Origin: a virus
Taxonomy: Duplodnaviria > Heunggongvirae > Uroviricota > Caudoviricetes
Virus record (IMG/VR): IMGVR_UViG_2690316316_000011
Span: 1 to 30,935 of that record
Length of the DNA stretch: 30,935 bases
Direction: 5' to 3' (one strand)
Shown here: piece by piece, positions 1,277 to 27,673 of the stretch
Layout of the letters: the number at the start of each line of letters is the position of its first letter
How positions within the stretch are numbered: position 1 is the first letter of the stretch
Program-made: the position numbers and the translations under genes
The notes under the pieces: generated by a model
Databases searched by the model: none
The model's input: the letters and a program-made list of their open reading frames with translations, nothing else
Told to the model about the DNA's origin: nothing

Positions 1277-1336
1277 AAATCAAATCCTTAGATTGCTATT
1301 TTATTAACTCAAAATACATATTAAAGGAAAAATCTT

Positions 1337-1633
1337 TCAGCTTCCACCAACCATAATCAATAGCACTTGCAAAAGTTGTCCTAATGGAACTTGGATCACA
1401 ATAATTCCAAAAGCATCAAGTACTGGTACTATGATCCAGTTATAAAAAATGATGAGTGTAATCACAAAACCAAGGGCATTACGCCAGTGGAATGACACTT
1501 TTTCAATCTCTTCTTTGTTTGTTTCAATCTGCCCCTCGGAATTTGTTTTTTGTACTTCCTGCTCGACTGTCTTCTTCTTGATGAAAAAATCCATTCCCGT
1601 ATTTAATAGCTCTATAATTGTACTTATAATCAT
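1337..1633 (-). CDS. small membrane protein (possible holin-like)
   Basis: 98-aa ORF, hydrophilic N-terminus and two C-terminal hydrophobic helices (ALGFVITLIIFYNWIIVPVL, GIIVIQVPLGQLLQVLLIMV); 4-nt ATGA overlap with the upstream gene. Function is inferred only. Confidence 0.35.
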   Translation of the reverse strand: MIISTIIELLNTGMDFFIKKKTVEQEVQKTNSEGQIETNKEEIEKVSFHWRNALGFVITLIIFYNWIIVPVLDAFGIIVIQVPLGQLLQVLLIMVGGS

Positions 1634-1941
1634 TCAATAATCCCCACACAATATCCCCAAAAGTGCTTTCCCTTTACAAATAGCTTCTTGCTTTCGATTA
1701 AGTACACGTCCATTTCATCACCCTGTAGTGACCATGTGAGTACTTCACCATCTTTAAAACTTTGCTTTTTCTCGTAGCAGATATTCATAAAGCACTCAAT
1801 CTGTATATCTGCTTTCTTCAATTGCTTCTGGAACTTCTTTCCGAGAAAGCATTTATTGATTGGCATACTGTTACCATCTGGTGTAGTACCATTCAGTGTT
1901 ATCTCACTCGTAAGTTCACCATAGTGTTCTTCAAAATTCAT
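1630..1941 (-). CDS. hypothetical protein
   Basis: 103-aa ORF in an operon-like minus-strand run, translationally coupled to neighbours; no recognisable motif. Confidence 0.35.
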   Translation of the reverse strand: MNFEEHYGELTSEITLNGTTPDGNSMPINKCFLGKKFQKQLKKADIQIECFMNICYEKKQSFKDGEVLTWSLQGDEMDVYLIESKKLFVKGKHFWGYCVGIIE

Positions 1942-1942
1942 T

Positions 1943-2512
1943 TTATCCCTTTTTTATAACAAACGATCCCTGTATACCTGCAAGAACAAGTCTTGCCCCC
2001 TTCTCTGCTTCTGCATAGAAATCATAAATGATTTTACGTTTCTTACTTTCACGCAATCCAATTACTCGCTTTTCTTTCTTCTTCTGGCTGGTATCAATCA
2101 ATCGCTCTTTACCATTCTTCCCTTTAATGACCTTATAACGCCCATTTGATAGATTACGTTTCAACCCTGCAATGTTACCGAACCGATCAAGACGTGCTTT
2201 ACTCGTTGGTACAAACTTATCAATGGCCTTTTCCTGAATAAGTACGTCATATAAGTACTTCGCTTGTAGATCCTTCACGAGAATTGTACTGCGAACATCA
2301 TTACCAACTTTCTTGTACATAAAGAGAATGGAACGCTGAGTGAAAGGTACTGCTCCTTTATCGACGGCATTGTTTAAGTCCATTTGCATTTTGGCTGATA
2401 ACGCCCTTGACCTTTTGATTATTTCATTCTGAAAGTAACGTCCGAGACGTTGACCCGTTGTATTAAGATAGGTTGTAGCGTTATTCAGTCCTGTTATTCT
2501 GCCTCTGATCAT
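1943..2512 (-). CDS. hypothetical basic protein
   Basis: 189-aa ORF, Lys/Arg-rich C-terminus (KGKNGKERLIDTSQKKKEKRVIGLRESKKRK); tightly packed with flanking genes. Confidence 0.35.
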   Translation of the reverse strand: MIRGRITGLNNATTYLNTTGQRLGRYFQNEIIKRSRALSAKMQMDLNNAVDKGAVPFTQRSILFMYKKVGNDVRSTILVKDLQAKYLYDVLIQEKAIDKFVPTSKARLDRFGNIAGLKRNLSNGRYKVIKGKNGKERLIDTSQKKKEKRVIGLRESKKRKIIYDFYAEAEKGARLVLAGIQGSFVIKKG

Positions 2513-2514
2513 AT

Positions 2515-2967
2515 TTACCTCACTCCCAACATTTCAATCAAACTCTGTAGCACCCGGAATAATTCGATTCGATTCTTTGGTAATCGGGATTTGCACAAAA
2601 TGGCTTTATTAAGATTATCAGGATGTAAACCGTAATAGCTAATCAATGCAGTTTCAATTAAAGTAGCTTCGGCATCTGTCTTAAAACAGTACAGAATCCT
2701 TTTTGAGTACTCCATACCTGAATCAATCATGGCATTTACACTTTTACTGCTGCCCGTATAGTCCATCCAGTTACTTTCAGTTGATGTACTCTCAAGGTTT
2801 GAAATGTCTTTGATACCTTTATATATCTGCTTCTTCCCGAAGTAGTACTCTCCCGTTTCGGGAAATTCAATTAAGTACACAAATGAACAGTACAGACCTT
2901 CATTTACTTCCTTGACATCCCATTGTTCTGGATCGAACATCGCCCAGTTGTTATTAATTCTCATCAC
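2515..2967 (-). CDS. GIY-YIG-like endonuclease (putative homing endonuclease)
   Basis: 150-aa ORF; N-terminal 'VYLIEFPETGEYYFGKK' has GIY-(10-11 aa)-YIG spacing, followed by a conserved-looking Arg and an E..LI segment (AEATLIETALI). Confidence 0.45.
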   Translation of the reverse strand: MMRINNNWAMFDPEQWDVKEVNEGLYCSFVYLIEFPETGEYYFGKKQIYKGIKDISNLESTSTESNWMDYTGSSKSVNAMIDSGMEYSKRILYCFKTDAEATLIETALISYYGLHPDNLNKAILCKSRLPKNRIELFRVLQSLIEMLGVR

Positions 2968-3004
2968 TAAATACCCATATGTAATTTATATAGGTATTTA
3001 GTGA

Positions 3005-3448
3005 ATGGATTTAAAAAGCAGACTTAAGGAATATGAAGGTACGATTGCCTATCAGAAAAAATTGAGGTACTTCCGTAATGGAAAATTCTTCCCATACTCT
3101 GATTCATTGGGATTCAGTACTGTCGGATATGGTCATTTAATCAAACCGGGAGAAAATTTCAGTACTGGATTATCCCCGAATGAGGCAGAGACTTTACTTG
3201 ATAAAGATATTGCAGTTGCCCGGACAGGATTAAGCACATTACGTTTAGGTACTCTTCCTGCCGACATTGAGGACTATCTGATCATCATGATTTTTCAGTT
3301 AGGGGTGAATGGCGTAAGTAAATTCAGAAAACTACTGGCAGCGGCAAAGGCGGGAGATCGTGATGGTATGCGGCGTGAGTCCGTTGATTCATTATGGTAC
3401 AGACAAACGCCAAACCGGGTAAGAGATATGAATAATAAATTGAAATAA
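3005..3448 (+). CDS. endolysin, T4 lysozyme-like muramidase (GH24)
   Basis: 147-aa ORF; N-terminal catalytic Glu region (EYEGTIAYQ...VGYGH) and C-terminal 'SLWYRQTPNRVRDM' closely parallel T4 lysozyme 'SRWYNQTPNRAKRV'. Confidence 0.85.
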   Translation: MDLKSRLKEYEGTIAYQKKLRYFRNGKFFPYSDSLGFSTVGYGHLIKPGENFSTGLSPNEAETLLDKDIAVARTGLSTLRLGTLPADIEDYLIIMIFQLGVNGVSKFRKLLAAAKAGDRDGMRRESVDSLWYRQTPNRVRDMNNKLK

Positions 3449-3450
3449 CA

Positions 3451-3475
3451 AAGGGGCATTACGCCCCTTTTGTCT
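3451..3475. terminator. bidirectional intrinsic terminator
   Basis: AAGGGGC-attac-GCCCCTT perfect 7-bp stem followed by T-rich tract (ttgtcttttc); sits between convergent lysozyme and the 3459-3731 ORF, overlapping the latter's stop codon. Confidence 0.6.
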
Positions 3476-3731
3476 TTTCGAGAATTGTCAGAATACGTTC
3501 AATCTTCAAATCCAGTTGATGAATTTGATCTTCGAGATTACGTAATGTCTTCTTCATTTCATCCTGCTCTGTTTCGAGGCGGTCTATACTGCTACTGTGT
3601 AGTTGTATCTTTGCTTCAATCTGCGAAACTCGCGTGAGTAAATCTTCAGTATCAGAAGAACTGTCACGGAATATCGTATAAAGAAAACCAAGGCCAGCGA
3701 TAACAAGAGCAAAAATAGTACCGAAATCCAT
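3459..3731 (-). CDS. membrane-anchored coiled-coil protein (possible lysis-associated / spanin-like)
   Basis: 90-aa ORF; N-terminal TM helix (IFALVIAGLGFLYTIF) followed by a heptad-like coiled coil (IEAKIQLHSSSIDRLETEQDEMKKTLRNLEDQIHQLDLKIERIL). Adjacent to endolysin; function inferred. Confidence 0.35.
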   Translation of the reverse strand: MDFGTIFALVIAGLGFLYTIFRDSSSDTEDLLTRVSQIEAKIQLHSSSIDRLETEQDEMKKTLRNLEDQIHQLDLKIERILTILEKTKGA

Positions 3732-3768
3732 ACATTATGCCTTATTATTGTTATTATGAGTATTTATA

Positions 3769-4416
3769 TCAATAGCCAGTGAAACTTGCTAAAGCAATTT
3801 GAAATCCGCTGTTCCCCATTGCCTGGCGATATGTCTTCTGGTTTTTATTCACATACTGTAAAGAGAATGAAGTACTGCTATTCCTTTTAATCAAAATGCC
3901 AGAATAACCAACTGTACCGCCATCATCGGATATGTTGCCCGGACACTGACTAATGCATATCCACGGATCGGCAAAACTCGTTGTAAGCGTCAAGGCAGTA
4001 CCGAGATCATGAGAGGATGGCACGGTAAGAAAACCCTGAATACGTGGCATTGTACCCGCACTGGCAGCAGACCAGATCAATGTTCCAGCACTGTTATACA
4101 CATCAAGGTAGCCTGATGTAAGAGCCGTAGTATTACTGGAGAGCATGAACCGCCCTGAACCTGCCTCGAACATTGCCGAGCCGGGAAAGCAGTACTTTCC
4201 ATTCGTCTGTAGCTGAAACCAGCGTAGCCCCGTATTCGGGAAGAAATTTAGGGGCAAATACCCCAGCGTACTCCCGTTACCAAAGGCACTGTTAATGAGA
4301 TAGTAACCTGTGTCTGAGAGTGTACCCATTGCTTTAACGGAACTCATTACGACCGATTTATTATCGGAATCAATCGTAAGAGCACCTGCTGAATTGTAAA
4401 CCTGAAAACCTGACAT
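3769..4416 (-). CDS. tail-tip associated protein, unknown function
   Basis: 215-aa ORF directly downstream of the J-like gene; Gly/Ser/Thr-rich; N-terminal motif GFQVYNSAGALTIDSD resembles the N-terminus of the neighbouring 101-aa ORF. Confidence 0.35.
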   Translation of the reverse strand: MSGFQVYNSAGALTIDSDNKSVVMSSVKAMGTLSDTGYYLINSAFGNGSTLGYLPLNFFPNTGLRWFQLQTNGKYCFPGSAMFEAGSGRFMLSSNTTALTSGYLDVYNSAGTLIWSAASAGTMPRIQGFLTVPSSHDLGTALTLTTSFADPWICISQCPGNISDDGGTVGYSGILIKRNSSTSFSLQYVNKNQKTYRQAMGNSGFQIALASFTGY

Positions 4417-4424
4417 AGTTATCC

Positions 4425-8312
<3,888 letters not shown>

Positions 8313-8328
<16 letters not shown>

Positions 8329-8936
8329 GTTTGATCCTGATTCACCTGTCCTAATAAACTAAAGTATTCATCCCCTTTATAGAGAGATTGATATACTGAA
8401 TTGGCGGCAATCAATGGCGGCTGTCTGTCCAGCTTCTTATAAATGCTGTTCACATAAACTGTCATTTCATTCGTTTTTTCATTTGGATCGGCTACTGCCT
8501 GAATGTAATCAATAAATCCTGAGAACATCAGCATTGAGTACAATACAGTACTGTCATAGGGATTCAGAATAACGAGTGTAATATTCATCTGTGCATCTTT
8601 AAGGAATCCCCCTAAAGCAAGTGCTCTTACACTCGTGTTCACATTACTAATTTTGAAGTTAATCGCATCGTTATTGATCCCCTTCTGTTCGCTGAAAGAA
8701 GGCAATGAACCACTAATGATATCGGGAAAACTAATGTACTGGTTGCCATTCAGATCAATATCAATAAGTGAATCAGTCCAGTGAAAACCATTTGTACCTT
8801 TCGGGAGTACATCAAAACAGGTAACATGAACACCTAAACTCATTACATCCATGACACTAAGGCGTGGTTTAGTCGTGCCCCGAACTAACTTCCAGTACTT
8901 TAATAATGTTGCGTTAGTTAAAATACTCTCGTCCAT
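8313..8936 (-). CDS. minor tail protein (gpL position)
   Basis: 207-aa ORF, synteny only; overlaps downstream gene by 16 nt. Confidence 0.4.
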
Positions 8937-9493
8937 CAGATGATATTCTCCGTTGCTTTTAATGTAATATTCATTATGTTACCTACGGGCATTGTATAAT
9001 CATTATCGGGATCTAATATTGCTTCAATCTGAATGTTGTTATAGATAATAGCCTCATTTGCCTGCACGGTATTTTGCAGTACAGGAAATACGGTTAATGA
9101 GGTACTGGTACGATCAATAATTCTGTATATCTTTTTATGATTCGTGAATTGTATTAACTCACCAACTGTTATTGAATTATTATTAGTAGTTATTACCCTT
9201 GTACCCTTTGAAGCGATTGACTGACTTGTTAATGCCCCGCTCTGTGCTCCCCTGTAAGCACCCATCAATCCGAGCGATAATGTGAAGGATTTACCCTGCG
9301 AATACTGAGCCAGAAAGTTTTGAACCTCCCCAATACTGGAAGGATTGAAACTTAACTGAAACTGAATCTCATAGTATTGAATACCCGTACTTCTCATGAT
9401 ACGTTGGCCTGTCCATGTTTGATTTGAGTAAACAGGTTCAGTACTTTTAATCTGGAAGTTTGTTATTTTTATTTGATTTGAAAAGGATGCCAT
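8936..9493 (-). CDS. minor tail protein (gpM / distal tail position)
   Basis: 185-aa ORF, first minor tail gene after the tape measure; synteny-based call. Confidence 0.4.
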   Translation of the reverse strand: MASFSNQIKITNFQIKSTEPVYSNQTWTGQRIMRSTGIQYYEIQFQLSFNPSSIGEVQNFLAQYSQGKSFTLSLGLMGAYRGAQSGALTSQSIASKGTRVITTNNNSITVGELIQFTNHKKIYRIIDRTSTSLTVFPVLQNTVQANEAIIYNNIQIEAILDPDNDYTMPVGNIMNITLKATENII

Positions 9494-9494
9494 A

Positions 9495-10067
9495 GTGATA
9501 CCTCGAATATCTTCTTTCTTTATTTATTTGAAAACCTCTTTTCTTAATTTTTTTAGGAGGCTTGATTGGCAGGCCGCATCGGTTATAGTTGCTATGATTT
9601 TGTTTGGAGCACAAATAGGCTATAACACATATGATAAATGGAAGGAAAGTTCAGATAATGTTTTTAAAATGCGTGTAATATTATTAAGCGAAATAAACAA
9701 CAACCTTATGGCTCTTGCAACTGGCGGCGATGATTCTCAGGTATTAGGTACTTACGAAATTTGTATTCCTTTACCTGCCGGAGATACAGAAGCCATTAAA
9801 AGAGTAGCAACCGCCGTTTCCTATTTGCATGATGAAGTATATTTTTCACAATTAGAAAAGTTAGCATCACTTCCTAAAAAAGAAGTAGATGCGATAGTGA
9901 AAAGTTATTATTCATTATCAAGATTGCGTACCCTTTCTACGCAACTTGACTTCAATATCAACTATTCACCGTCTAAGGTAAAATTAATGAGAGATGAATA
10001 TTACAATCTTTATAGCTTAACAAGCTCTCTATCTAACTATTTGACTCATCACACTGAAAATCCCTAA
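9495..10067 (+). CDS. opposite-strand moron ORF, hypothetical membrane protein
   Basis: 190-aa ORF antisense to the tail operon, filling a 585-bp gap between tape measure and minor tail genes; N-terminal hydrophobic helix (AASVIVAMILFGAQIGY); AT-rich, no AGTACT copies. True start may be an internal Met. Confidence 0.3.
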   Translation: MIPRISSFFIYLKTSFLNFFRRLDWQAASVIVAMILFGAQIGYNTYDKWKESSDNVFKMRVILLSEINNNLMALATGGDDSQVLGTYEICIPLPAGDTEAIKRVATAVSYLHDEVYFSQLEKLASLPKKEVDAIVKSYYSLSRLRTLSTQLDFNINYSPSKVKLMRDEYYNLYSLTSSLSNYLTHHTENP

Positions 10068-10077
10068 TTTGAATTTC

Positions 10078-12297
10078 TTAAGTATTCCGTCGCTGACTGC
10101 TTCTCACGGCCTGAGTAACGCTATTAGCGTGTTTCTTCAACATCTCATTGAATTTCTTATCATCACCCGCAACGTCTCCCTGAATGATCAAGGGGGCGTT
10201 GACGGTGATATCTCCAGCGGTACTGCCGCCTTTCTCCTGAGTATCGAGGAACTTAGTCAGCTTCTTGTTAGCTTCTGGCTGTACTACACGCTCACCGGCT
10301 TTCAGTACAAAACTTTTGTTGTCCATACCAGCGGGTAATTCATCTACACCGCCGTGGAACTGCCCACTTGCAGCCCCCTTCGCAGTACTGATAATGCTCA
10401 TACCTAACGATAGTACCTGAGCGTAGTTTGCGAGGCTTGCGGGCCACGGCGTAGCAAGAGCCTGTGCTAATGCTGATTGTATTGATAGTACTGTCTGAGC
10501 AATAGTAATGCCCTTACTCAATGCAAATGCCGCCTGTGCCGCCCCTGAAGATTCACCAAACGCTTCTACCATGCCATCACTTAAGGATTGAGCCGTATCA
10601 CTGAATATAGTCAATTGTTGGTGTGCATTCAGGTTACTGATATCGATAGCCTGAGCGTTATACTTTGCCGTAATCTCTGCCTTTCGCTTTTCATAATCTT
10701 CATGACCCTTCAGTAATAAATCATTCTGCTGAAGTTCTGCATTCATGGCATCCTGATTATCTTTCAGTAATTGATCGGTATTATCATAACTTAAGGGATT
10801 ACCACCATTGATACGCTGATTTTGCTGATCTGTTAGGAATGATTTTTGAGTACTGTTCAGTACACCAGAAGAAATTAAGCTATTTGTATCTTTCAGACCC
10901 TGATTGGGATCTTGATAACCAACCATTGAATTGATTAAATCATTACGTTGTTTAGTACCAGAAGCATTTGCGGCATCGACATATTCTTTAAGTTGCTTTG
11001 GTGATATTCCAAGTACCTGAGCACTGTCCATAATCGTCTTAAGAAGGGCTTTCTGTTGCCTGTCGAACTGCTGTAGGCGTACTTTGAAACCCTTTTCCCC
11101 GACCTGAGCAAGTGCTGTTTCAAGATTACGCTGTGCCTGTAGCCTTTTTGCATCAGCCTGCTTTTGGGCTTGTTCTGCCTGTTTCCGTAGCTGATCGGCT
11201 TTCTTCTGAGCATCCTCACGTTCTTTGGCTTCGTCTTTCCAGCCACCTTGCGGAGCCGTAACAGTAGCTATGTCATTACGAAAGTTGTTAACGAGTCCTT
11301 CAAGATTGGCCTGAGCACTGGCGTACACACTCTGCTTGCCATTATCCATACTGCCAGTTTGCAAGGCTGCACCCTGATAGTTTAAAGCCCCGGCGGTGCG
11401 TAACTTTTCCCATATGTCTAAAAAGTCCTGTAATGTTCCCTTAGACGTTTTAATCTTCTCGTTCAGATCTTCAAATAGTCCTGCTTCATGGGGCTTCTGA
11501 TTGGCGGCATCCAGTACTGCATTCATTGCCCCCACGAGTGGATTCAGACCATCAGCGATAGTACCTTTGATACGGGTAGTCAGCTTATCCAGATTCTTAT
11601 CGAACTCTGCATAGTTAGCTGCTGCCTCGTTACTCACGGCGGCGTTCTGCCCCTGTATGTACGTCATTGCATCGGCTTCAGTATTGAACTGCTGAAGAGT
11701 ACTGATCATGTGGCTTGAATCACTCGCCAGTGTTTCCATGACGTTGACGATTTCGGCCTGTGACTTACCTGCATCCCGCATGGCATAAAACGTGTGGATC
11801 ACGGCCTGCATACCGCCATCTGCTTGTTTAAGGTACTTGTTATATTGCTGTAGGTTCAGCCCGTACTCTTTCAGGTCATCCGATACACCACCACCAGCAC
11901 GGAACGCATCACCAAGTTTATCGAGCGTATCCTTGTTGAAATCCCCAAACTTATCCATTTCAAGCCCAAGACCGCTAAACGCCGCCGATAGCTGCTGGAG
12001 CTGCATGACGGACAATCCAGTACTACGACTGATTTCATTCATTTCACGCACATATTCGCGGCTTGAATTGACCAGTGCAGTAAGGCCACCAATACCAATT
12101 GCAGCAGCCCCCGCTAAACCTGTCATTGCCGTACCGAAACCACCAGCAAGCCCACTAAAACTGCCAGTGAGATCTTCAATCACACCGCCAGCATTTGAAC
12201 CGAATTCTTCAAGTGATGAGGTGCCTTGTCGCAAGGCACGCTGTAAACCTGACGTATCCCCGTCAATATCAAAACGAATTCTATTATTATTTGCCAT
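10078..12297 (-). CDS. tail tape measure protein
   Basis: 739-aa ORF immediately downstream of G/GT chaperones; N-terminal Gly/Ala-rich segment (GLAGGFGTAMTGLAGAAAIGIGG), long Q/A/K-rich helical stretches. Confidence 0.8.
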   Translation of the reverse strand: MANNNRIRFDIDGDTSGLQRALRQGTSSLEEFGSNAGGVIEDLTGSFSGLAGGFGTAMTGLAGAAAIGIGGLTALVNSSREYVREMNEISRSTGLSVMQLQQLSAAFSGLGLEMDKFGDFNKDTLDKLGDAFRAGGGVSDDLKEYGLNLQQYNKYLKQADGGMQAVIHTFYAMRDAGKSQAEIVNVMETLASDSSHMISTLQQFNTEADAMTYIQGQNAAVSNEAAANYAEFDKNLDKLTTRIKGTIADGLNPLVGAMNAVLDAANQKPHEAGLFEDLNEKIKTSKGTLQDFLDIWEKLRTAGALNYQGAALQTGSMDNGKQSVYASAQANLEGLVNNFRNDIATVTAPQGGWKDEAKEREDAQKKADQLRKQAEQAQKQADAKRLQAQRNLETALAQVGEKGFKVRLQQFDRQQKALLKTIMDSAQVLGISPKQLKEYVDAANASGTKQRNDLINSMVGYQDPNQGLKDTNSLISSGVLNSTQKSFLTDQQNQRINGGNPLSYDNTDQLLKDNQDAMNAELQQNDLLLKGHEDYEKRKAEITAKYNAQAIDISNLNAHQQLTIFSDTAQSLSDGMVEAFGESSGAAQAAFALSKGITIAQTVLSIQSALAQALATPWPASLANYAQVLSLGMSIISTAKGAASGQFHGGVDELPAGMDNKSFVLKAGERVVQPEANKKLTKFLDTQEKGGSTAGDITVNAPLIIQGDVAGDDKKFNEMLKKHANSVTQAVRSSQRRNT

Positions 12298-12378
12298 TCT
12301 TATTTCCTAATACCTGATTCCTGATAGCGTCACCTATTGATTTAATATCATTGGCCTGAGCTTCTTTTTTCTTCTGTT

Positions 12379-12974
12379 CTACACTTCTGCTTTTTCTTGT
12401 GTAGTGAGATCGCTATTAAGAACATCCAGAAAATCAAAATCAGCAACTTTGATACTACGCCGTGCCTCTGGCGTGAGATTCCCATTACTTATCGTGGTGT
12501 AATAGCACTGATAAGCATGTTTCAACATCTCAATTTGCGTACCTGTCGGTTCTATATAGGCATCGTAAACCATAAGCATATCGAGTACTTCAGGATCTAA
12601 ATTAAAGTACTCATCTGGTGATAAACCACGTTTATTGACCATTTTACAGAAGTACCGCAGATGGCTATCACTTCTTACTTTTTTTCGACTTCATCCACTG
12701 GATTACTGTCACTGACAAGTTGAATAATTGCCTGATAAATTTTACCCTGCATAACATAATCTATACTGTTGACATTAATACGCCCATCAATATCTTCATC
12801 AGAGAAAATAGGATCACCATTTTCATCTTTAACACAAAGAATAAGAGTATTTGCTACATCAGTACAGTTTGCAAAATCGCGACCATTTGGACGGTGGATG
12901 TAGAGCGTGAAGCCTTCGATCTCAAATGGTTTTAGCTCTGGTTGTAATTTCTTTTTTAGTTCTATTAAATTCAT
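12379..12974 (-). CDS. tail assembly chaperone frameshift fusion (gpGT-like), made by -1 ribosomal frameshift
   Basis: The -1 frame is open from the slippery site (...KK-VRSDSHLRYFCK-MVNKRGLSPDEYF...) into the 87-aa ORF 12379-12642; the frame relation (codon phase +1 in coordinates) matches a -1 shift. Confidence 0.65.
12675..12974 (-). CDS. tail assembly chaperone (gpG-like)
   Basis: 99-aa acidic ORF between major tail candidate and tape measure; ends ...VDEVEKK* with a slippery heptamer immediately before the stop. Confidence 0.7.
   Translation of the reverse strand: MNLIELKKKLQPELKPFEIEGFTLYIHRPNGRDFANCTDVANTLILCVKDENGDPIFSDEDIDGRINVNSIDYVMQGKIYQAIIQLVSDSNPVDEVEKK
12678..12684 (-). promoter_or_regulatory. 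programmed -1 frameshift slippery heptamer A AAA AAG
   Basis: Minus-strand mRNA reads GTC GAA AAA AAG TAA; A_AAA_AAG in the zero frame directly before the G stop codon. Confidence 0.7.
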
Positions 12975-12992
12975 CTGTTATCTCCATATACG

Positions 12993-13021
12993 AAAAAGGG
13001 AAAGTTAATAACCTTCCCTTT
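12993..13021 (-). terminator. intrinsic terminator-like hairpin downstream of major tail gene
   Basis: On the minus transcript AAAGGGAAGG-uuauuaa-CUUUCCCUUU followed by UU; pairs perfectly only on the minus strand (one G-U), A-C mismatch on plus. Lies between the 167-aa gene stop and the G gene start. Confidence 0.45.
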
Positions 13022-13031
13022 ATTTATTAAA

Positions 13032-13535
13032 TTATGGAGTTTCAGTAATCAGTCCTGAATCAATAGCTGCACCATCTACAGCAAGCGTGAAGGTCTTAGT
13101 TACGACTTCATCCTTGTCACCACCAATAGTCGTACTCGACACGAAACAGGTGTAGATAACGTAGAATCCTGTTGTTTTAGTGGCATCTTCAAAATAGCTG
13201 AGTTTGATCTGACAACGTTTTTGATCATCGGCAAGCTGTTCTAACTTTTGGTGTACTTCATTATCTGGCAAGTAATTAACTGCAAGACTAATATCAGGAA
13301 TTGATTTAGTACCTAATAATTTCCGGTCATACGCGTTATTAAATGTTTTTACAGTAATTACGGTACTCTCAAAGCCTGAAGTTGTGAAGGTATTCACTTC
13401 GGGGATTACTTCAAAATCCGTTGTAATAGTACTGCCAGCACTTGTACCTACTTCGACCTGTAGGTTAGCACCAGCAAAAATATCCATAGCCATATTTATA
13501 TCCTTATAAGAATTGAATTGACGGGATAAATCCAT
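13032..13535 (-). CDS. major tail (tube) protein candidate
   Basis: 167-aa ORF immediately upstream of G/GT, the lambda gpV position; paralogous to the N-terminal ~150 aa of the 911-aa fibre (shared NYLPD..HQ.L and GDKD.VVTKT motifs). Likely true start at internal MAMDIF. Confidence 0.5.
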   Translation of the reverse strand: MDLSRQFNSYKDINMAMDIFAGANLQVEVGTSAGSTITTDFEVIPEVNTFTTSGFESTVITVKTFNNAYDRKLLGTKSIPDISLAVNYLPDNEVHQKLEQLADDQKRCQIKLSYFEDATKTTGFYVIYTCFVSSTTIGGDKDEVVTKTFTLAVDGAAIDSGLITETP

Positions 13536-13550
13536 TTATCCCTTTTGTAT

Positions 13551-16286
13551 TTATTTATTATCGAGTAGTGATTGTACAAGTACTTTCAATGTTTCAATTT
13601 CGGCTGCAAGTTCATCATTCTTTATTTTTAGTGCCTTGATAGCAGCAAGACCATCTAACATCATGGGTGTTTCATCGAGATGATAGAGATCACCGACTTC
13701 TTTAACGTATTGTGGATCAATATTCATAATCTGCTGTGAAACCACACCACGTCTTGGTGTTTCATCCTCATCAGATTTAAAAGTGAAGTTCACAAAATCC
13801 ATTTGCGATATATTATTGAGTGCAATATTAAGATCTAATTTTTCACCAATATTCTTTGCTCTTTCATCGGAAACTGAAGAAGTTGTTATTTGTGCCCACG
13901 CTCCCCATGCGGCAACATTCGTTTGTATCCGAGAATAGATACGATTCGACGTATCATAAAAACGTTGTTGATACCATTGATTGGTTGTTCCCATTGCTGA
14001 AGTGCCGCCGACATTTAAACCCTGAGTTGCCTGTGTAAATAATGAGCCATAGATATTTCCGCTTAATGGACCATTTGACCACGTACCGCCGACAGCTTGC
14101 CACCCCTGATTAACAACATTCATATCAGTACCAGTAGCTGCTTGTGATGAGCCAGTAGGTGCAAGTCCTCCAGCAAGGCCAATGGGTGTGCCATAGCCCG
14201 AAATTGGCGGTAGATACGCCCAGCCCTGCCCAGCGACTGACCCAATCCTATCTCTGAAATAGAAAATAACCCCCTTACCGGCTTCCTGGCTATTCTCAAT
14301 TCTTACCCGGCGACCTACCACATCATCACCACCAGTAACATCTAAGTTGATTGCGGGCCAATCATCCCGCGATACCGTTAGTTGATTGCTGATCACTTGA
14401 GGTTGATTGAACGTATTTGATCTGTCCAATGTCGGTACTTCATGCCATTGCCATTTACCACTGTTCTGTGATGGCTGCACACCTCCAGCAAAGACACGAT
14501 TACCATCAGGCTGAACAAGCATTCCAGAATAAGACGGTGAACCATCATACTGTGATACATAACCAGCACCGCCGAATGATGAAGGGGAATCAATAGTTGC
14601 TGTAGTCGTTCGAATGAACCCTTTCGGTGCATCCTTCATATCGGCTACATGGCGAGGATTGATTCCAAGGCCAACTTCTGAAAGCGTATTGTCGATTGAA
14701 TAAATTTGCTGACCATTTAATGTCACAGAACTACCTACGGTAATAGATCCACTGAAGGTCTGCCCAGCACTCCATGTATTGGCAGTGGAAAGCAATGGTA
14801 CAGTACTTCCAGATGTACCAATGTTTGTTGTCGCTGCCGTGCCAAGTCCTAAAGCAGTACGTGCTGCCGCTGCCGTCGTAGCCCCTGTACCGCCACTCGT
14901 TAAGGGTAATGGCGTAGAGAGGGATAACGACGATAAAGCTGCCGTACCGCCAGTGATAGCGGCTGCGTTAGCATTCTGCGTTGCGAGGCTACCTAACCCA
15001 AGATTAGTACGTGCTGTTTCTGTATTCGCAATGTCCGATAGATTCGATGCGATTTTTAGCTGTGCGTCATTAGTAATAGAACCAAGACCAATATCATCTT
15101 TCGAAAGTACTATATCGGCAGAGAGCTCATGACCATTTATCACAATCGTTTTTGGTACAAAATCAGTATTAACATGAGTAGTTAGTAAATTAATTGAAGC
15201 ATTAACACCATCGATCGTGCTATCGACTTCACCCTTTGAGTAAACATCCAGATTGTTACGGGCTTCTTCAATATCAGTCAGATCAGAAAGGTTATGACTG
15301 ATCGCCAATTGTGCATCGTCAGTAACGGAACCAAGACCAACATCATCTTTCGAAAGTACTACATCATCGCTGAGTACATGCCCGTTAATCGTTCTGGTAT
15401 CCGGTACACTGCCTGTGTCTGAACTCGTTAGTACCACATCATCAGAAAGTACATGGCCATTAACGGTACGTTCTACAGGAACAGCACCAACATCGCCAGG
15501 AGTCAGAACAATGTCAGTACTCAGTTGCTTGCCGTTTACTGTTCGAGTGAGAGGAACATAGCGTGCGTCCATCTGTGTAGCGGTATAGATACGAGTCCAC
15601 GCTGTAGTGGCATTCTTCGCATAGATACTTAGCGTTCCCGATTTCGTCATAGCAAGGGAACTGACAGACGAACCATCAACCAGACCAATCCCCATCATGT
15701 CGGCACCAGCAGGATTACCCGCCTGTGTTGACGGTACTTTGATAAAGCTGTTACCCGTAGGGATAGCCGGTGCGTATTGAGGAACATCCGTTGTGTTTGA
15801 ACCTACACCATAATCTCCCTGATAGACCGGAAGTAACGCCGTAATCGCCTGACTACGGGCAACAACATCAGTTGGGGTAAATTCATAGGTTTTGGTTACT
15901 ACGCTATCCTTATCCCCGGAGAGTTGAGTACTGGTAATCGCCCCGTTCACCATTGCATAAGTTAACTGGCTGCCCTCTTCCTGATAGGCAATGGTTAGCT
16001 GGAACACATCCTGATTTTCTGCTGCTTCATCCAGAAATTGATGTGTAGAATCATCAGGGAGGTAATTAACAACAATATCAACTGGATTAGCGGATTTCTC
16101 TGCAAGTAATTTACTGTTATATGTGCTGTTGTAGGTGTCGTACTGATTCACCTCTGATTCAATCTCCAGTACTGGAAATTCTGCCACTTCATTAATCTGG
16201 ACGTTGCCAATTCCCTGTGGTGATCTGTTCCCCGTATCGGGGTTATATGATAATGAAAGTCCATTACCTGTAAAAATATCTGCCAT
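13551..16286 (-). CDS. tail fibre with N-terminal tube-like domain and C-terminal intramolecular chaperone (peptidase S74-like) domain
   Basis: 911-aa ORF; N-terminal domain paralogous to the 167-aa neighbour; central repeats (RTVNGKQLSTDIVLT / RTVNGHVLSDDVVLT / RTINGHVLSDDVVLS / KTIVINGHELSADIVLS; GLGSVTDDAQL / GLGSITNDAQL); C-terminal 106 aa begin SDERAKNIGEKLDLN, matching the auto-cleavage motif of endosialidase / T5 pb1-type chaperone domains. Confidence 0.7.
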   Translation of the reverse strand: MADIFTGNGLSLSYNPDTGNRSPQGIGNVQINEVAEFPVLEIESEVNQYDTYNSTYNSKLLAEKSANPVDIVVNYLPDDSTHQFLDEAAENQDVFQLTIAYQEEGSQLTYAMVNGAITSTQLSGDKDSVVTKTYEFTPTDVVARSQAITALLPVYQGDYGVGSNTTDVPQYAPAIPTGNSFIKVPSTQAGNPAGADMMGIGLVDGSSVSSLAMTKSGTLSIYAKNATTAWTRIYTATQMDARYVPLTRTVNGKQLSTDIVLTPGDVGAVPVERTVNGHVLSDDVVLTSSDTGSVPDTRTINGHVLSDDVVLSKDDVGLGSVTDDAQLAISHNLSDLTDIEEARNNLDVYSKGEVDSTIDGVNASINLLTTHVNTDFVPKTIVINGHELSADIVLSKDDIGLGSITNDAQLKIASNLSDIANTETARTNLGLGSLATQNANAAAITGGTAALSSLSLSTPLPLTSGGTGATTAAAARTALGLGTAATTNIGTSGSTVPLLSTANTWSAGQTFSGSITVGSSVTLNGQQIYSIDNTLSEVGLGINPRHVADMKDAPKGFIRTTTATIDSPSSFGGAGYVSQYDGSPSYSGMLVQPDGNRVFAGGVQPSQNSGKWQWHEVPTLDRSNTFNQPQVISNQLTVSRDDWPAINLDVTGGDDVVGRRVRIENSQEAGKGVIFYFRDRIGSVAGQGWAYLPPISGYGTPIGLAGGLAPTGSSQAATGTDMNVVNQGWQAVGGTWSNGPLSGNIYGSLFTQATQGLNVGGTSAMGTTNQWYQQRFYDTSNRIYSRIQTNVAAWGAWAQITTSSVSDERAKNIGEKLDLNIALNNISQMDFVNFTFKSDEDETPRRGVVSQQIMNIDPQYVKEVGDLYHLDETPMMLDGLAAIKALKIKNDELAAEIETLKVLVQSLLDNK

Positions 16287-16301
16287 TTTAAATCCTTTTA
16301 G

Positions 16302-16694
16302 TTATCTTGTTTTCTCCGTAACTTGAATATTTATCGTGAATGACAGACTTACAGAGCCAGATATGGAATCTGTTACTATGTCGCTTTGTTCATATGAATA
16401 AGAAAGAATAATCAAGCCAGCATCTTTAAATGCCTGTGACTTTTGCTCATCAAAGGTACTGATAATCTGGTCATAAGTAATTGAAGGGGCCGTATTAGTA
16501 CTCTCTGGTTTTGGACTAACAAGGTACTGAATAGCAAATGATGCCGATTGTCTTTGATTGCCAAAATTAATACTGCTCAATGAATAATCGAATGCAATTT
16601 GTGTAAACACATCCTTTTCACGAGAAGCCGTCAGGTTCTTTGAAGCATTAATCAGTTGCTTCATTGTTTGCCGTACTTTACTAACTAATTCCAT
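16302..16694 (-). CDS. head-tail joining or tail completion protein (putative)
   Basis: 130-aa ORF between capsid and tail genes; synteny only. Confidence 0.3.
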   Translation of the reverse strand: MELVSKVRQTMKQLINASKNLTASREKDVFTQIAFDYSLSSINFGNQRQSASFAIQYLVSPKPESTNTAPSITYDQIISTFDEQKSQAFKDAGLIILSYSYEQSDIVTDSISGSVSLSFTINIQVTEKTR

Positions 16695-17017
16695 TAGTAA
16701 TCCTCCGCAAATGATTGCCCTGATTGCGTTCGGTAAAACACATTCACCATCCCGGAGTGATCATCTTCAATGTTATAGACAACCTGATTGATATCATCAA
16801 TTATCAGTACTGAATTAAGTGCCACGTTAGCAGTAGCTAAATCCTCTTTTTTCATACTTACATATGTTTCTGTGCTTTCGATAAATCCACCACCACTATC
16901 AATAGAAACGGGAAGTACTTCTACAATGCCAGTAAAAGTACTTCCCGTAGAAGTCTGGATTATTTGACCGAAAGCATTCAGAAACGCATTACATTGCGAT
17001 TCTTTAAACGCTCTCAT
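16694..17017 (-). CDS. head completion / connector protein (putative)
   Basis: 107-aa ORF immediately after the capsid gene; synteny only. Confidence 0.3.
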   Translation of the reverse strand: MRAFKESQCNAFLNAFGQIIQTSTGSTFTGIVEVLPVSIDSGGGFIESTETYVSMKKEDLATANVALNSVLIIDDINQVVYNIEDDHSGMVNVFYRTQSGQSFAEDY

Positions 17018-17029
17018 AATTAATCCTTA

Positions 17030-20806
<3,777 letters not shown>

Positions 20807-20818
20807 TTAATATCCTTA

Positions 20819-23257
<2,439 letters not shown>

Positions 23258-24587: not shown

Positions 24588-24592
24588 AGTAT

Positions 24593-24635
24593 ATATCCTC
24601 ATGCTGTGTTATTATCACCAGCGGCATGAGGATAT
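24593..24635. repeat. 12-bp perfect inverted repeat (hairpin or operator)
   Basis: ATATCCTCATGC-(19 nt)-GCATGAGGATAT between convergent DUF3800-like and lipoprotein genes; loop too long for a canonical terminator. Confidence 0.4.
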
Positions 24636-24683
24636 CATATGCAATTATTTTATCATGCCACATACACTCAATCACTTAATAAT

Positions 24684-24974
24684 TTAACTTTGATGATTTT
24701 TATTATCTATATTATTATATTTTTGAATTCTTTCCTCGCGTATTAGACATGTAGTACTGCCATCGTCCATCTGGTAGATTGGATTGTAGATGCGACCGCA
24801 ATCACTCTGGAATTGAGGCCGATAGTACTTCACCCCGTTACGTGTACCTGCGTCAAACAGTACTACAACAGCCTTGTTATCAACATTGCCGACAAAAGCG
24901 TTATCCATGAATGAGTGATGTACGTTACTACAGCCTGTTAGCAGTACTACCAACATGACGATGAGTATTTTCAT
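24684..24974 (-). CDS. small lipoprotein (candidate superinfection-exclusion protein)
   Basis: 96-aa ORF; signal peptide MKILIVMLVVLLTG followed by lipobox Cys (LTGC-SN); two further Cys in the mature part. Confidence 0.6.
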   Translation of the reverse strand: MKILIVMLVVLLTGCSNVHHSFMDNAFVGNVDNKAVVVLFDAGTRNGVKYYRPQFQSDCGRIYNPIYQMDDGSTTCLIREERIQKYNNIDNKNHQS

Positions 24975-24984
24975 TTCTATTTCC

Positions 24985-25515
24985 TTATAGTAATTTTTCG
25001 CAGTGCTCGAAGCGGATCGGCTTGTACATGCCCTGTACTGCCCAAACTCCGCATCCCTTAAGCAACTGGTGATGGTTGGTGTCCTGTACCTGTACGATCA
25101 CCTTGTCACAGCATCTATGGATGTTCTGTAGCAGTACGGGGAACATGACGCTCCCGATCAACTCATCACTGAACCTTCTATTTAGCCGTACTACCTCATA
25201 ATCGCCGTGCAGCAATTCGACCGCCGAAGTACCACGCCTCCCAACGTCATCGAGCCAGTGCAAGCCAAAGTACTTTATGTAGTCTGCCGACTCAGTGGGA
25301 AGTATTGGAGTGCTGACAGCACAGAACAGACCATTTGACCTGAACCACTCTTCTTTCCTACGTATGACGCTCATCTGTTCATGGTGTAGCTGCCGCTTCA
25401 GTACATCCCCAGCAATAACCCGGCAGCCATGTATTTCTATCTGTGGCTGGATTTCCACTCCGAGCAGTTGCCCATTGAGAGAAGTGGTCGGCACAGACCA
25501 GTACTGGATGTTCAT
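24985..25515 (-). CDS. hypothetical Cys/His-rich protein
   Basis: 176-aa ORF co-oriented with the lipoprotein gene; visibly GC-richer than surrounding DNA; no motif recognised. Confidence 0.35.
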   Translation of the reverse strand: MNIQYWSVPTTSLNGQLLGVEIQPQIEIHGCRVIAGDVLKRQLHHEQMSVIRRKEEWFRSNGLFCAVSTPILPTESADYIKYFGLHWLDDVGRRGTSAVELLHGDYEVVRLNRRFSDELIGSVMFPVLLQNIHRCCDKVIVQVQDTNHHQLLKGCGVWAVQGMYKPIRFEHCEKLL

Positions 25516-25568
25516 TTAATGACCTCATTTGACCGTAAGTCATTAATATTGATCATTTTTATAGATCA

Positions 25569-25585
25569 TTCAATGCATCATTGAA
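25569..25585. promoter_or_regulatory. palindromic operator-like site
   Basis: TTCAATG-cat-CATTGAA inverted repeat in the divergent intergenic region between 24985-25515 (-) and 25677-25985 (+). Confidence 0.3.
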
Positions 25586-25639
25586 CAGTTTTATCGATAG
25601 GTTGTGATTTACTGGATTTTTAAAGCCACATACCCAACA

Positions 25640-25655
25640 CTGTATATACATACAG
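25640..25655. promoter_or_regulatory. candidate LexA (SOS) box
   Basis: CTGTATATACATACAG fits the enterobacterial LexA consensus CTGT-N8-ACAG with AT-rich spacer; overlaps a TATATA -10-like hexamer, 22 nt upstream of the 25677 start codon. Confidence 0.5.
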
Positions 25656-25676
25656 CACAACTATGGAGAACATCAA

Positions 25677-25985
25677 ATGAGTAAGAATGGCTACGATCCA
25701 GCAATCATTCGAGGGGTTCAGACCTTCACACATTGCGAGCGTGAATTCAGGGTTTGCTACTACGGTTCAGTACTGGATAAGTTTGCATGGGGTGATCGTG
25801 TGTTCTTCCAGAATGGACAAGGGAAGTACTGGTTCGGTACAGTTCAACGTGATTGCTTCGACCTGATCATTGAGTACCCCATCGCTTCAGTACTGGAAGG
25901 GTTAACTTATCTGGTGAGGGAAGATGAAATTGCCAGGCTTCATGAAGATGGTTGGTTTTGTGGACAAGAAGAACTACCGTTTTGA
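25677..25985 (+). CDS. hypothetical protein, possibly SOS-regulated
   Basis: 102-aa ORF with GGAG Shine-Dalgarno 8 nt upstream; preceded by the LexA-box candidate; followed by an AGTACT-flanked inverted repeat. Confidence 0.4.
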   Translation: MSKNGYDPAIIRGVQTFTHCEREFRVCYYGSVLDKFAWGDRVFFQNGQGKYWFGTVQRDCFDLIIEYPIASVLEGLTYLVREDEIARLHEDGWFCGQEELPF

Positions 25986-27297: not shown

Positions 27298-27309
27298 TGA
27301 AAACTCCTT

Positions 27310-27666: not shown

Positions 27667-27673
27667 TCAGTAC

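What the first reader, a model, noticed from the sequence alone, without database searches (positions are those of the whole stretch)
24684..25515. Lipoprotein and partner gene: candidate superinfection-exclusion module
The 96-aa ORF has a textbook lipoprotein signal (MKILIVMLVVLLTG-C-SN). Small phage lipoproteins such as T5 Llp and the Cor proteins block the phage's own outer-membrane receptor. It is co-transcribed with a 176-aa Cys/His-rich ORF of unknown function, and the pair sits in a block that looks GC-richer than the rest of the window.
Basis: partly seen in the sequence, partly recalled or inferred. Interest (0 to 1): 0.5.

Follow-up and report, generated by a model that had tools for sequence, protein, structure and literature searches.

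The report
Prophage EAL-like regulator plus lipoprotein operon
The "unknown partner" gene encodes a shrunken, catalytically dead EAL-domain protein related to the Salmonella flagella repressor STM1697, and it sits in a conserved prophage operon with a small outer-membrane lipoprotein that is not related to the known exclusion proteins Cor or Llp.

Summary
Both ORFs are real, conserved and under purifying selection. They form a tight two-gene unit (10-nt gap, each with its own ribosome-binding site, hairpin downstream) in the cargo region of a lambda-like E. coli prophage.

The 176-aa "Cys/His-rich" protein is a miniaturised, degenerate EAL-like domain. Its family profile hits STM1697 at E 2e-30, and the AlphaFold model best matches the STM1697-FlhD complex (TM 0.80). 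Five of nine catalytic residues are missing or replaced. The hydrophobic core of the FlhD-binding surface is kept. One contact helix is deleted, and three polar contacts differ in this clade.

The most likely role is a protein-binding regulator that inhibits the flagellar master regulator FlhD4C2. This is inferred, not shown. Near-identical copies are common in Klebsiella pneumoniae, which I understand to be non-flagellate, and that argues against it.

The lipoprotein has a conserved lipobox and two invariant cysteines. It belongs to a small orphan family. Its weak Cor match disappears once the signal peptide is removed, and it has no fold neighbours. In phage contigs it directly follows EAL-like genes of three divergent lineages. 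It also occurs alone, including in a virulent jumbo phage.

Superinfection exclusion is neither supported nor excluded. The GC-rich block is the EAL-like gene only.

The parts
24985..25515 (-). Gene 1: 176-aa miniaturised, degenerate EAL-like protein of the STM1697/YdiV type. It keeps E21 (ExL), D89/D90 (DDxG) and Q161. It lacks the catalytic Asn, the ExxE glutamates and the EGVE glutamate, and has Lys->R110. Positions matching FlhD contacts are V91, L102, F115, S122, V127, L128, Q130, N131 and C135.
   Evidence: Family profile vs PDB: STM1697 E 2.3e-30, YdiV about 1e-4. AF2 pLDDT 82.8. Best Foldseek hit is the 5hxg_A STM1697-FlhD complex, E 3e-12, TM 0.80. Alignments. No Pfam hit at E<=0.1. 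Weak hit to the PdeH model, 25 bits against a cutoff of 190.
24975..24984 (-). 10-nt spacer between the two genes. It holds the AAGGA ribosome-binding site of gene 2, just after the stop codon of gene 1.
   Evidence: Sequence read. A comparable short spacing (about 3 to 28 nt) is seen in related loci.
24684..24974 (-). Gene 2: 96-aa lipoprotein precursor. The signal peptide is residues 1-14, and the lipobox is LTG-C with Cys15 at 24930-24932. Residue +2 is Ser, so outer-membrane sorting is predicted by the Lol rule. The mature domain has the YRPQF motif and two invariant Cys (C59, C76).
   Evidence: Alignment of 33 homologues. Only 34 hits among 1.84 billion representatives, about 28 to 30 of them true, all small lipoproteins where read. 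No Pfam, PDB or BFVD relatives.
24593..24635 (.). 12-bp-stem hairpin between the convergent lipoprotein and DUF3800 genes. It is a probable terminator for the operon, but no U-tract follows it on the minus strand.
   Evidence: RNA fold of 24585-24690 on the minus strand; sequence.
25516..25676 (.). 161-nt divergent intergenic region. It should hold the operon's promoter, which was not located confidently. It contains the palindrome TTCAATG-CAT-CATTGAA (25569-25585), several GATC sites, and a LexA box (25638-25657) that belongs to the neighbouring 102-aa gene.
25677..25985 (+). Divergent 102-aa gene (phrog_2100, function unknown). It accompanies the pair in most related loci and is preceded by a conserved LexA box. 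It is a neighbour, not shown to belong to the module.

Best explanation
This is a two-gene accessory (moron) operon in the cargo region of a lambda-like prophage with a serine integrase, upstream of the terminase genes. Gene 1 encodes a miniaturised EAL-like protein descended from the STM1697/YdiV (RflP) group. It has lost the residues needed to hydrolyse c-di-GMP. It most likely acts by protein-protein binding, and the best-supported target is the FlhD subunit of the flagellar master regulator FlhD4C2, so a lysogen would make fewer flagella. Gene 2 encodes a small, probably disulfide-bonded, outer-membrane lipoprotein of an uncharacterised family that is genetically coupled to EAL-like genes in this phage group. 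Its target is unknown. The best guess is an envelope component, possibly a phage receptor.

Shown here: the fold and family of gene 1, the loss of catalytic residues, the lipobox, the conserved gene pairing, and purifying selection on both genes. Inferred: FlhD binding, motility repression, lipoprotein localisation and role, and expression in the lysogen.
For: - The profile of the 176-aa family hits STM1697 at E 2.3e-30 and YdiV/CdgR at about 1e-4.
- BLASTP to STM1697 gives 26% identity, E 1e-18.
- The AF2 model (pLDDT 82.8) best matches 5hxg_A, the STM1697-FlhD complex (TM 0.80). YdiV comes next, then canonical EAL domains.
- Against active PdeH, the family lacks the catalytic Asn, the ExxE glutamates and the EGVE glutamate, and has Lys->Arg.
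- STM1697 and YdiV neither bind nor hydrolyse c-di-GMP, and they act through FlhD. The STM1697 double mutant F160A/L173A abolishes FlhD binding and motility repression (PMC5622320).
- These two core positions are F115 and L128 in the window protein. Across the family they are F/Y and L (I in one member). L136, V147 and L172 are replaced conservatively.
- The segment FPVL(I/L)xNIxxxCDK, which carries these contacts, is the best-conserved part of the family.
- Pairing: the lipoprotein directly follows an EAL-like gene in 10 of 16 assessable IMG/VR contigs found with the lipoprotein profile. It is present after 8 of 10 contigs found with the EAL-like profile.
- The upstream EAL-like genes belong to three divergent lineages: mini, a full-length 220-aa form 35% identical to STM1697, and a YdiV-like 184-aa form.
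- pN/pS is 0.17 for gene 1 and 0.09 for gene 2.
- Precedents: prophage TldR remodels host flagella (bioRxiv 10.1101/2025.07.22.666180). In the chromosome, rflP lies next to the lipoprotein gene nlpC and responds to envelope stress.
Against: - No binding or phenotype data exist.
- The helix carrying STM1697 contacts V115 and L116 is deleted in the whole mini family.
- In the window's own clade three polar or aromatic contacts are changed (K167->S, K175->Q, Y180->C). Most other members keep R, K and Y there.
- Copies 97% identical occur on 723 Klebsiella contigs, many of them K. pneumoniae. From general knowledge, that species normally lacks flagella and flhDC, so FlhD cannot be the selected target there.
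- The two genes differ in GC content (50% vs 39%).
- Each gene also occurs without the other. The lipoprotein is alone in Serratia, C. koseri, several viral contigs and the virulent phage EJP2. The EAL-like gene is alone in Pseudescherichia prophages and in the Cedecea chromosome.
- They may therefore be independent morons.
- No promoter was located.
Confidence: 0.45

Rival explanations
1. The lipoprotein is a superinfection-exclusion factor that masks an outer-membrane receptor, functionally like Cor or Llp. The upstream gene is an accessory or unrelated passenger.
For: The lipobox is conserved and residue +2 is not Asp, which predicts outer-membrane sorting. The family is confined to phages and prophage cargo regions. 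It also occurs alone in prophages and in the virulent jumbo phage EJP2. For a virulent phage, a role that benefits the phage, such as receptor masking, is the obvious reading. Purifying selection is strong (pN/pS 0.09).
Against: There is no homology to Cor. The PHROG hit is driven by the signal peptide and is lost for mature domains. There is no fold or sequence match to anything in BFVD or PDB. The gene is not adjacent to tail-fibre or receptor-binding genes. This view does not explain why EAL-like genes of three lineages sit directly upstream.
Confidence: 0.2
2. The EAL-like protein is a protein-binding regulator whose target is not FlhD. Candidates are another transcription factor or a phage or host repressor. 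From my own knowledge (not checked here), YdiV has also been reported to act on Fur through SlyD.
For: Near-identical copies are abundant in Klebsiella pneumoniae. The V115/L116 contact helix is lost, and K167, K175 and Y180 equivalents are replaced in this clade. Chromosomal relatives lie next to the biofilm regulator gene bssR in Cedecea, not next to flagellar genes. Purifying selection persists in the window's E. coli/Klebsiella clade.
Against: The closest characterised relatives, STM1697 and YdiV, both act through the same FlhD surface. The two hot-spot hydrophobic positions are conserved. Most hosts of the family are flagellated Enterobacterales as far as I know (E. coli, Lelliottia, Buttiauxella, Pseudescherichia, Scandinavium, Cedecea).
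Confidence: 0.25
3. The 176-aa protein still handles cyclic dinucleotides. It would be a c-di-GMP phosphodiesterase or receptor, or a sponge for defence signalling nucleotides.
For: It has the EAL fold and keeps the ExL Glu, the DD pair and the QG motif. Degenerate EAL domains such as FimX and LapD appear in the fold hits as c-di-GMP complexes.
Against: The Asn, the ExxE and EGVE glutamates and the catalytic Lys are missing. Two segments of the barrel are deleted. There is no Pfam EAL hit. Its nearest relatives neither bind nor hydrolyse c-di-GMP (PMC5622320). There is no PADLOC hit.
Confidence: 0.05
4. The two genes are functionally independent morons that travel together. Their adjacency reflects shared ancestry of one prophage lineage, not a joint mechanism.
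For: The two genes differ in GC and GC3. Each gene is found without the other. In L010 the lipoprotein's place is taken by an unrelated secreted 123-aa protein.
Against: The spacing is tight and conserved. The pairing persists even where the EAL-like partner is a very different lineage (HMM scores 30-119 against 240-310) while the lipoprotein stays conserved.
Confidence: 0.3

Closest known systems
STM1697 of Salmonella Typhimurium (EAL-like anti-FlhD4C2 factor; PDB 5HXG)
   Same: It is the best sequence and fold match. It has a degenerate EAL fold without a full catalytic set. The FlhD-contact core F160/L173 is conserved as F115/L128, and the FPxLxxxIxxxCDK segment is shared.
   Different: STM1697 is 235 aa in the PDB chain and chromosomal. 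Its orthologue in Citrobacter lies between fabI and sapF. The window protein is 176 aa with two internal deletions, one of which removes the V115/L116 contact helix. Overall identity is 26%. The window protein is prophage-borne and followed by a lipoprotein gene. K167, K175 and Y180 equivalents are changed in this clade.
YdiV / RflP of E. coli and Salmonella (anti-FlhD4C2 factor; PDB 3TLQ, 4ES4)
   Same: It is the second-best fold match and an EAL-like protein with no reported catalysis. Its FlhD-contact residues F155, F168, F181 and A184 fall on the same alignment positions as the STM1697 contacts. Its gene lies next to a lipoprotein gene, nlpC.
   Different: Sequence identity is only about 20% in alignment A3 (13-15% in the Foldseek structural alignments). 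YdiV is 237 aa. nlpC is upstream of it and encodes an unrelated NlpC/P60 protein. YdiV-like partners of this lipoprotein do exist in other phage contigs (L064, L067), but not in this window.
Cor (HK022/phi80/N15/T1) and Llp (T5) exclusion lipoproteins
   Same: They are small phage-encoded lipoproteins with a lipobox.
   Different: The mature domain shows no detectable sequence similarity, and there is no fold match. From my own knowledge, cor and llp lie near tail or receptor-binding genes. This gene lies in the cargo region upstream of the terminase genes, on the integrase side.
Prophage-encoded TldR regulators of flagellin
   Same: They are temperate-phage cargo that remodels host flagella, with proposed benefits against flagellotropic phages and immune recognition.
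   Different: TldR is an RNA-guided DNA-binding repressor of fliC. The protein here would act after translation on FlhD4C2. The two are unrelated in sequence.

Membership tests
EAL-like anti-FlhD4C2 factors (STM1697, YdiV/RflP) | EAL fold with significant sequence relationship to STM1697 or YdiV | tested here: met
   Profile vs PDB: STM1697 E 2.3e-30, YdiV 1e-4. Foldseek top hits are 5hxg_A, 3tlq and 4es4. BLASTP E 1e-18.
EAL-like anti-FlhD4C2 factors (STM1697, YdiV/RflP) | Loss of the c-di-GMP catalytic and metal-binding residues | tested here: met
   In the alignment with PdeH and YdiV, the Asn, the ExxE glutamates and the EGVE glutamate are absent and Lys is replaced by Arg. There is no Pfam EAL hit.
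EAL-like anti-FlhD4C2 factors (STM1697, YdiV/RflP) | Conservation of the FlhD-contact residues (STM1697 V115, L116, L136, V147, F160, K167, L172, L173, K175, H176, Y180) | tested here: inconclusive
   The core positions F160 and L173 are identical. L136, V147 and L172 are replaced conservatively. V115 and L116 are deleted. K167->S, K175->Q, H176->N and Y180->C in the window clade, whereas most other family members have R, K and Y at the K167, K175 and Y180 positions (residue list from PMC5622320).
EAL-like anti-FlhD4C2 factors (STM1697, YdiV/RflP) | Binds FlhD and represses class II flagellar genes and motility | not testable with these tools
   This needs pull-down, two-hybrid and motility assays.
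EAL-like anti-FlhD4C2 factors (STM1697, YdiV/RflP) | The host has the FlhD4C2 target | tested here: inconclusive
   The exact protein is from E. coli, on 27 contigs. Copies 97% identical lie on 723 Klebsiella contigs. That K. pneumoniae normally lacks flhDC is general knowledge, not checked here.
Active EAL c-di-GMP phosphodiesterases (Pfam PF00563) | Pfam gathering score and a complete catalytic set (E, N, E, E, D, D, K, E, Q) | tested here: not met
   No PF00563 hit at E<=0.1. The PdeH NCBIfam model gives 25 bits against a cutoff of 190. Five of nine catalytic positions are lost.
Cor superinfection-exclusion lipoproteins (phrog_1119) | Lipoprotein signal peptide with lipobox | tested here: met
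   MKILIVMLVVLLTG-C. The Cys is conserved in at least 90% of 33 homologues.
Cor superinfection-exclusion lipoproteins (phrog_1119) | Similarity of the mature domain to the Cor family profile | tested here: not met
   The full-length hit has E 0.002 over residues 1-54, and only 4 of 33 members hit. No hit remains for four mature domains even at E<=1.
Cor superinfection-exclusion lipoproteins (phrog_1119) | Blocks the phage's outer-membrane receptor (FhuA for Cor) | not testable with these tools
   This needs adsorption and plating assays.
T5 Llp-type receptor-blocking lipoproteins | Sequence or fold similarity to Llp, and a gene next to the receptor-binding protein gene | tested here: not met
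   No PDB or BFVD neighbour at E<=0.001, and no PDB sequence hit at E<=10. I did not confirm that Llp itself is in those libraries. The neighbouring genes are DUF3800 and the EAL-like gene, not tail genes.
Spanin outer-membrane subunit (Rz1-like) | Small lipoprotein gene embedded in or next to an Rz-like gene in the lysis cassette | tested here: not met
   The PHROG spanin hit covers the signal peptide only, residues 1-21. The only lysozyme-family gene I scanned is at 3005..3448, far away.

The most novel reading that the evidence does not exclude
The EAL-like protein and the lipoprotein form a dedicated phage module that rewires the cell surface of the lysogen. The cytoplasmic mini-EAL protein switches off flagellar synthesis at FlhD4C2. 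The outer-membrane lipoprotein acts on an envelope target, such as a receptor, the flagellar basal body or envelope-stress signalling. Together they would protect the lysogen against flagellotropic and other superinfecting phages, or against immune detection. This would be the first phage-encoded anti-FlhDC factor and a new two-part exclusion strategy.
Probability: 0.15. Interest if true: 0.7.

Novelty: new variant of a known kind. Interest (0 to 1): 0.45.

Why it matters
EAL-like anti-FlhD4C2 factors are so far described as chromosomal regulators of Salmonella and E. coli motility and virulence. A mobile, miniaturised version carried by prophages of E. coli, Klebsiella, Lelliottia, Pseudescherichia and relatives would mean temperate phages can switch off host flagella after translation. 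That would add to the recent TldR story of prophage flagellar remodelling. It could affect phage resistance, immune recognition and colonisation.

The 176-aa form also shows how far this fold can be trimmed in a gene that is still under purifying selection.

The coupled lipoprotein family has no known relatives. It is a compact, testable candidate for a new envelope-acting phage protein.

My full-text searches for prophage, EAL-like and FlhD together found no paper.

Tried and rejected
- Cor, phrog_1754, spanin, LvhB7, lysozyme-inhibitor and 'T6SS immunity lipoprotein' hits for the 96-aa protein all overlap the signal peptide. The Cor and phrog_1754 hits are lost when it is removed.
- Fold search of the lipoprotein model (pLDDT 69.7) gave nothing at E<=0.001 in BFVD or PDB. 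The top hits, Sm/Hfq-like, have probability below 0.2.
- The exhaustive profile search found four long proteins (1021-2033 aa). These are repetitive proteins (PKD/Ig-like and mucin-like repeats by Pfam) that match only short stretches of the profile, so I did not count them as relatives.
- PADLOC gave no credible hit for any cargo gene.
- Megablast of the locus found nothing in 50,697 phage records. In 5,426 complete E. coli genomes it found only two partial matches.
- tblastn against the phage records found no member of the mini-EAL family. It found only a different 229-aa EAL protein in P1-like phages.
- The promoter scan found no convincing minus-strand promoter upstream of gene 1.
- Literature searches on 8xMP/RipA gave nothing relevant.
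- The idea that the whole pair is a GC-rich island was rejected. Only gene 1 is GC-rich, and partly the 102-aa neighbour.

Full report
**Observation**

One is 96 aa (24684..24974) and the other 176 aa (24985..25515). They are 10 nt apart. GAGG precedes the first gene, and AAGGA lies in the 10-nt gap just after the first gene's stop codon. A 12-bp hairpin (about 24593-24635) separates the lipoprotein gene from the convergent DUF3800 gene.

Against a 97%-identical copy (L068), pN/pS is 0.17 for the 176-aa gene and 0.09 for the lipoprotein gene. Both are therefore real, selected genes.

The GC claim is only half right. The 176-aa gene is 50.3% GC (GC3 60%), in the top 0.3% of equal-sized windows. 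The lipoprotein gene is 39.2% GC, which matches the window mean of 39.7%.

**Context**

Window 482..23222 is the structural and packaging arm of a lambda-like prophage. It holds a gpA terminase, a lambda-family portal, a capsid/protease fusion, a J-like tail tip protein and a lysozyme.

The pair lies in a cargo block upstream of the terminase genes. The block also holds:
- a DUF3800 gene;
- a 102-aa gene;
- an 8xMP/RipA membrane protein gene;
- an orphan Hcp-DUF1493-STM2901 trio.

Longer contigs that carry the identical protein show the layout prkA | serine recombinase | small genes | cargo | terS terL portal.

The exact proteins come from E. coli. Copies 95-97% identical are frequent in Klebsiella, on 723 contigs for one variant. 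E. coli G3/10 has the same prophage arm but only remnants of the pair. Strain AREA_C483 has a diverged pair at about 80% nucleotide identity.

**The 176-aa protein**

Pfam gives nothing. NCBIfam gives a sub-threshold hit to the PdeH phosphodiesterase model.

The family is small. There are 29 clusters at 90% identity, 169-201 aa apart from truncated entries, none with a precomputed Pfam hit and almost all labelled "hypothetical" where a name is given.

Its profile hits STM1697 (PDB 5HXG) at E 2.3e-30 and YdiV/CdgR at about 1e-4. An AlphaFold model (pLDDT 82.8) best matches the STM1697-FlhD complex chain (E 3e-12, TM 0.80). YdiV comes next, followed by dozens of canonical EAL domains.

I aligned it with active PdeH and with YdiV:
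- Kept: the ExL glutamate (E21), the DD pair (D89/D90) and the QG motif (Q161).
- Lost: the catalytic Asn, the ExxE glutamates and the EGVE glutamate.
- Changed: the catalytic Lys becomes R110.
- Missing: two segments, together about 35-45 residues.

It is thus a miniaturised, catalytically dead EAL-like domain. The conserved cysteines C65 and C136 are shared with STM1697 and form no evident metal-binding motif.

**Likely mechanism of gene 1**

STM1697 and YdiV neither bind nor cleave c-di-GMP. They bind FlhD and inhibit FlhD4C2. In STM1697, eleven residues contact FlhD, and the double mutant F160A/L173A abolishes binding and motility repression (PMC5622320).

I rebuilt STM1697 residues 5-223 from the printed alignments and mapped the contacts:

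| STM1697 contact | Window protein | Rest of the family |
|---|---|---|
| F160 | F115 | F or Y |
| L173 | L128 | L (I in one) |
| L136 | V91 | V, L or M |
| V147 | L102 | L, V, I or F |
| L172 | V127 | V or I |
| V115, L116 | deleted | deleted |
| K167 | S122 | mostly R |
| K175 | Q130 | mostly K |
| H176 | N131 | N or S |
| Y180 | C135 | mostly Y |

The hydrophobic heart of the interface is therefore kept and its periphery is not.

FlhD is the best-supported target, but it is an inference. The abundance of near-identical copies in K. pneumoniae argues for relaxed or different targeting in this clade, because that species is non-flagellate as far as I know. Purifying selection nevertheless persists.

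**The lipoprotein**

The lipobox (LTG-C) is conserved. Residue +2 is S, G, T or N, so outer-membrane sorting is predicted. The mature domain has a YRPQF motif and two invariant cysteines.

An exhaustive profile search of 1.84 billion representatives found 34 hits. About 28 to 30 are true, and those I read are all 80-125-aa lipoproteins. The four long hits are repetitive proteins matched only over short stretches.

There is no Pfam, PDB-sequence, PDB-fold or BFVD-fold relative. The Cor hit (E 0.002) and the phrog_1754 hit both start at residue 1 and vanish for mature domains. On the evidence available, the protein is not a member of the Cor or Llp families.

**Is the pair a module?**

I surveyed 67 fetched loci with HMMs of both families.
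- The lipoprotein directly follows an EAL-like gene in E. coli, Lelliottia, Pseudescherichia, Buttiauxella and Scandinavium prophages.
- It does so in 10 of 16 assessable IMG/VR contigs found with the lipoprotein profile. Two more contigs have an EAL-like gene 2.5 kb away.
- Of 10 contigs found with the EAL-like profile, 8 carry the lipoprotein downstream.
- The upstream partner can be the mini form, a full-length 220-aa form 35% identical to STM1697 (L061), or a YdiV-like 184-aa form (L064, L067). The lipoprotein stays well conserved throughout.

That pattern argues for a functional link. Three things argue against one:
- The lipoprotein occurs alone in Serratia, C. koseri and several viral contigs, often divergent from an 8xMP gene, and in the virulent jumbo phage EJP2.
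- The EAL-like gene occurs alone in some Pseudescherichia prophages and in the Cedecea chromosome between rimO and bssR.
- The two genes differ in base composition.

**Comparison with what is known**

The closest known proteins are STM1697 and YdiV/RflP. This protein differs from them in being prophage-borne, about 60 residues shorter, and paired with a lipoprotein.

My full-text searches for prophage, EAL-like and FlhD together returned nothing. TldR is a precedent for prophages remodelling host flagella.

The chromosomal rflP gene lies beside the lipoprotein gene nlpC and responds to envelope stress. I treat this only as a lead.

Among 50,697 deposited phage records no member of the mini-EAL family was found. 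A few P1-like phages carry a different 229-aa EAL protein.

**Verdict**

The Cor/Llp interpretation is unsupported by homology, though exclusion remains untested. The main new result is the identity of the partner gene.

I rate this a new variant of a known kind, with moderate interest. The function rests on inference, and the Klebsiella distribution is a genuine caveat.

Noticed in passing
window 25638-25657 and 25677-25985 (+): A strong LexA (SOS) box, CACTGTATATACATACAGCA, matches the consensus at 17 of 20 positions, with 0 matches expected in shuffles. It lies 20 nt upstream of the 102-aa ORF (phrog_2100, function unknown). The CTG-N10-CAG core is kept at the same place in most of the 10 other aligned loci, some of them quite diverged. 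The gene is therefore probably SOS-induced. It could be a LexA-controlled antirepressor like Gifsy GfoA, 186 Tum or N15 AntC (PMC3121763).
   Followed up: partly
window 26812-28120 (-): An orphan Hcp gene (T6SS_HCP, E 2e-31) is followed by DUF1493 and STM2901-family (DUF8209) genes inside the prophage cargo region. No other T6SS genes are in the window. The same trio is present in E. coli G3/10 and in L068-L071.
   Followed up: no
window 26097-26783 (+); L004 4141-5526, L005 4722-5480, L060, L064: An 8xMP/RipA 'octameric membrane protein' gene (PF24838) lies near the pair. In loci where the lipoprotein stands alone, it is often directly divergent from an 8xMP gene. I found no literature on this family. 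A second CTGT-N8-ACAG motif lies in its 3' part (26673-26688).
   Followed up: partly
window 25569-25585 and 25516-25600: A perfect palindrome, TTCAATG-CAT-CATTGAA, and several GATC sites lie upstream of the EAL-like gene. In the alignment the palindrome is seen only in the window (the close relative L022 shares just part of it), whereas a GATCAATTATCAAT-like element is conserved across the family. These may be operator or Dam-methylation sites.
   Followed up: no
L002 8186-8478 (E. coli G3/10): The same prophage arm next to ybhA/modC keeps only short remnants of the EAL-like, lipoprotein and 102-aa genes. The cassette has been deleted there. In the Buttiauxella MAG (L022 6001-6528) the EAL-like gene has an in-frame stop.
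   Followed up: partly
L017 5001-5582 (Cedecea lapagei), L012, L024: Chromosomal members of the mini-EAL family (193-201 aa) sit between rimO and bssR/yliI/gstB, with no lipoprotein gene nearby. This may be the source of the GC-rich prophage copy.
   Followed up: partly
L073 3710-4399 (phage P1 isolate OP279344), L072 4710-5399 (Salmonella phage SJ1), phage vB_EcoM-Ro157c2YLVW: P1-like phages carry a 229-aa EAL protein next to mat, annotated 'ydiV' in SJ1. It keeps DDFGSG, KLDKSF, AEGVE and QGY motifs, so it may be an active phosphodiesterase. It is 29% identical to STM1697 and 25% to YdiV.
   Followed up: partly
L074 1456-1701 (Escherichia phage EJP2, Asteriusvirus, 349 kb): This virulent jumbo phage encodes an 81-aa member of the same lipoprotein family (HMM E 3e-22), with no EAL-like gene among the seven annotated genes around it.
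   Followed up: partly
window 23466-24587 (+): A DUF3800 gene (phrog_12991, E 1e-114) lies convergent with the pair. It is 99.6% identical in nucleotides between the window and L068, whereas the adjacent lipoprotein gene is only 94.5% identical. This suggests mosaic exchange within the cargo block.
   Followed up: no
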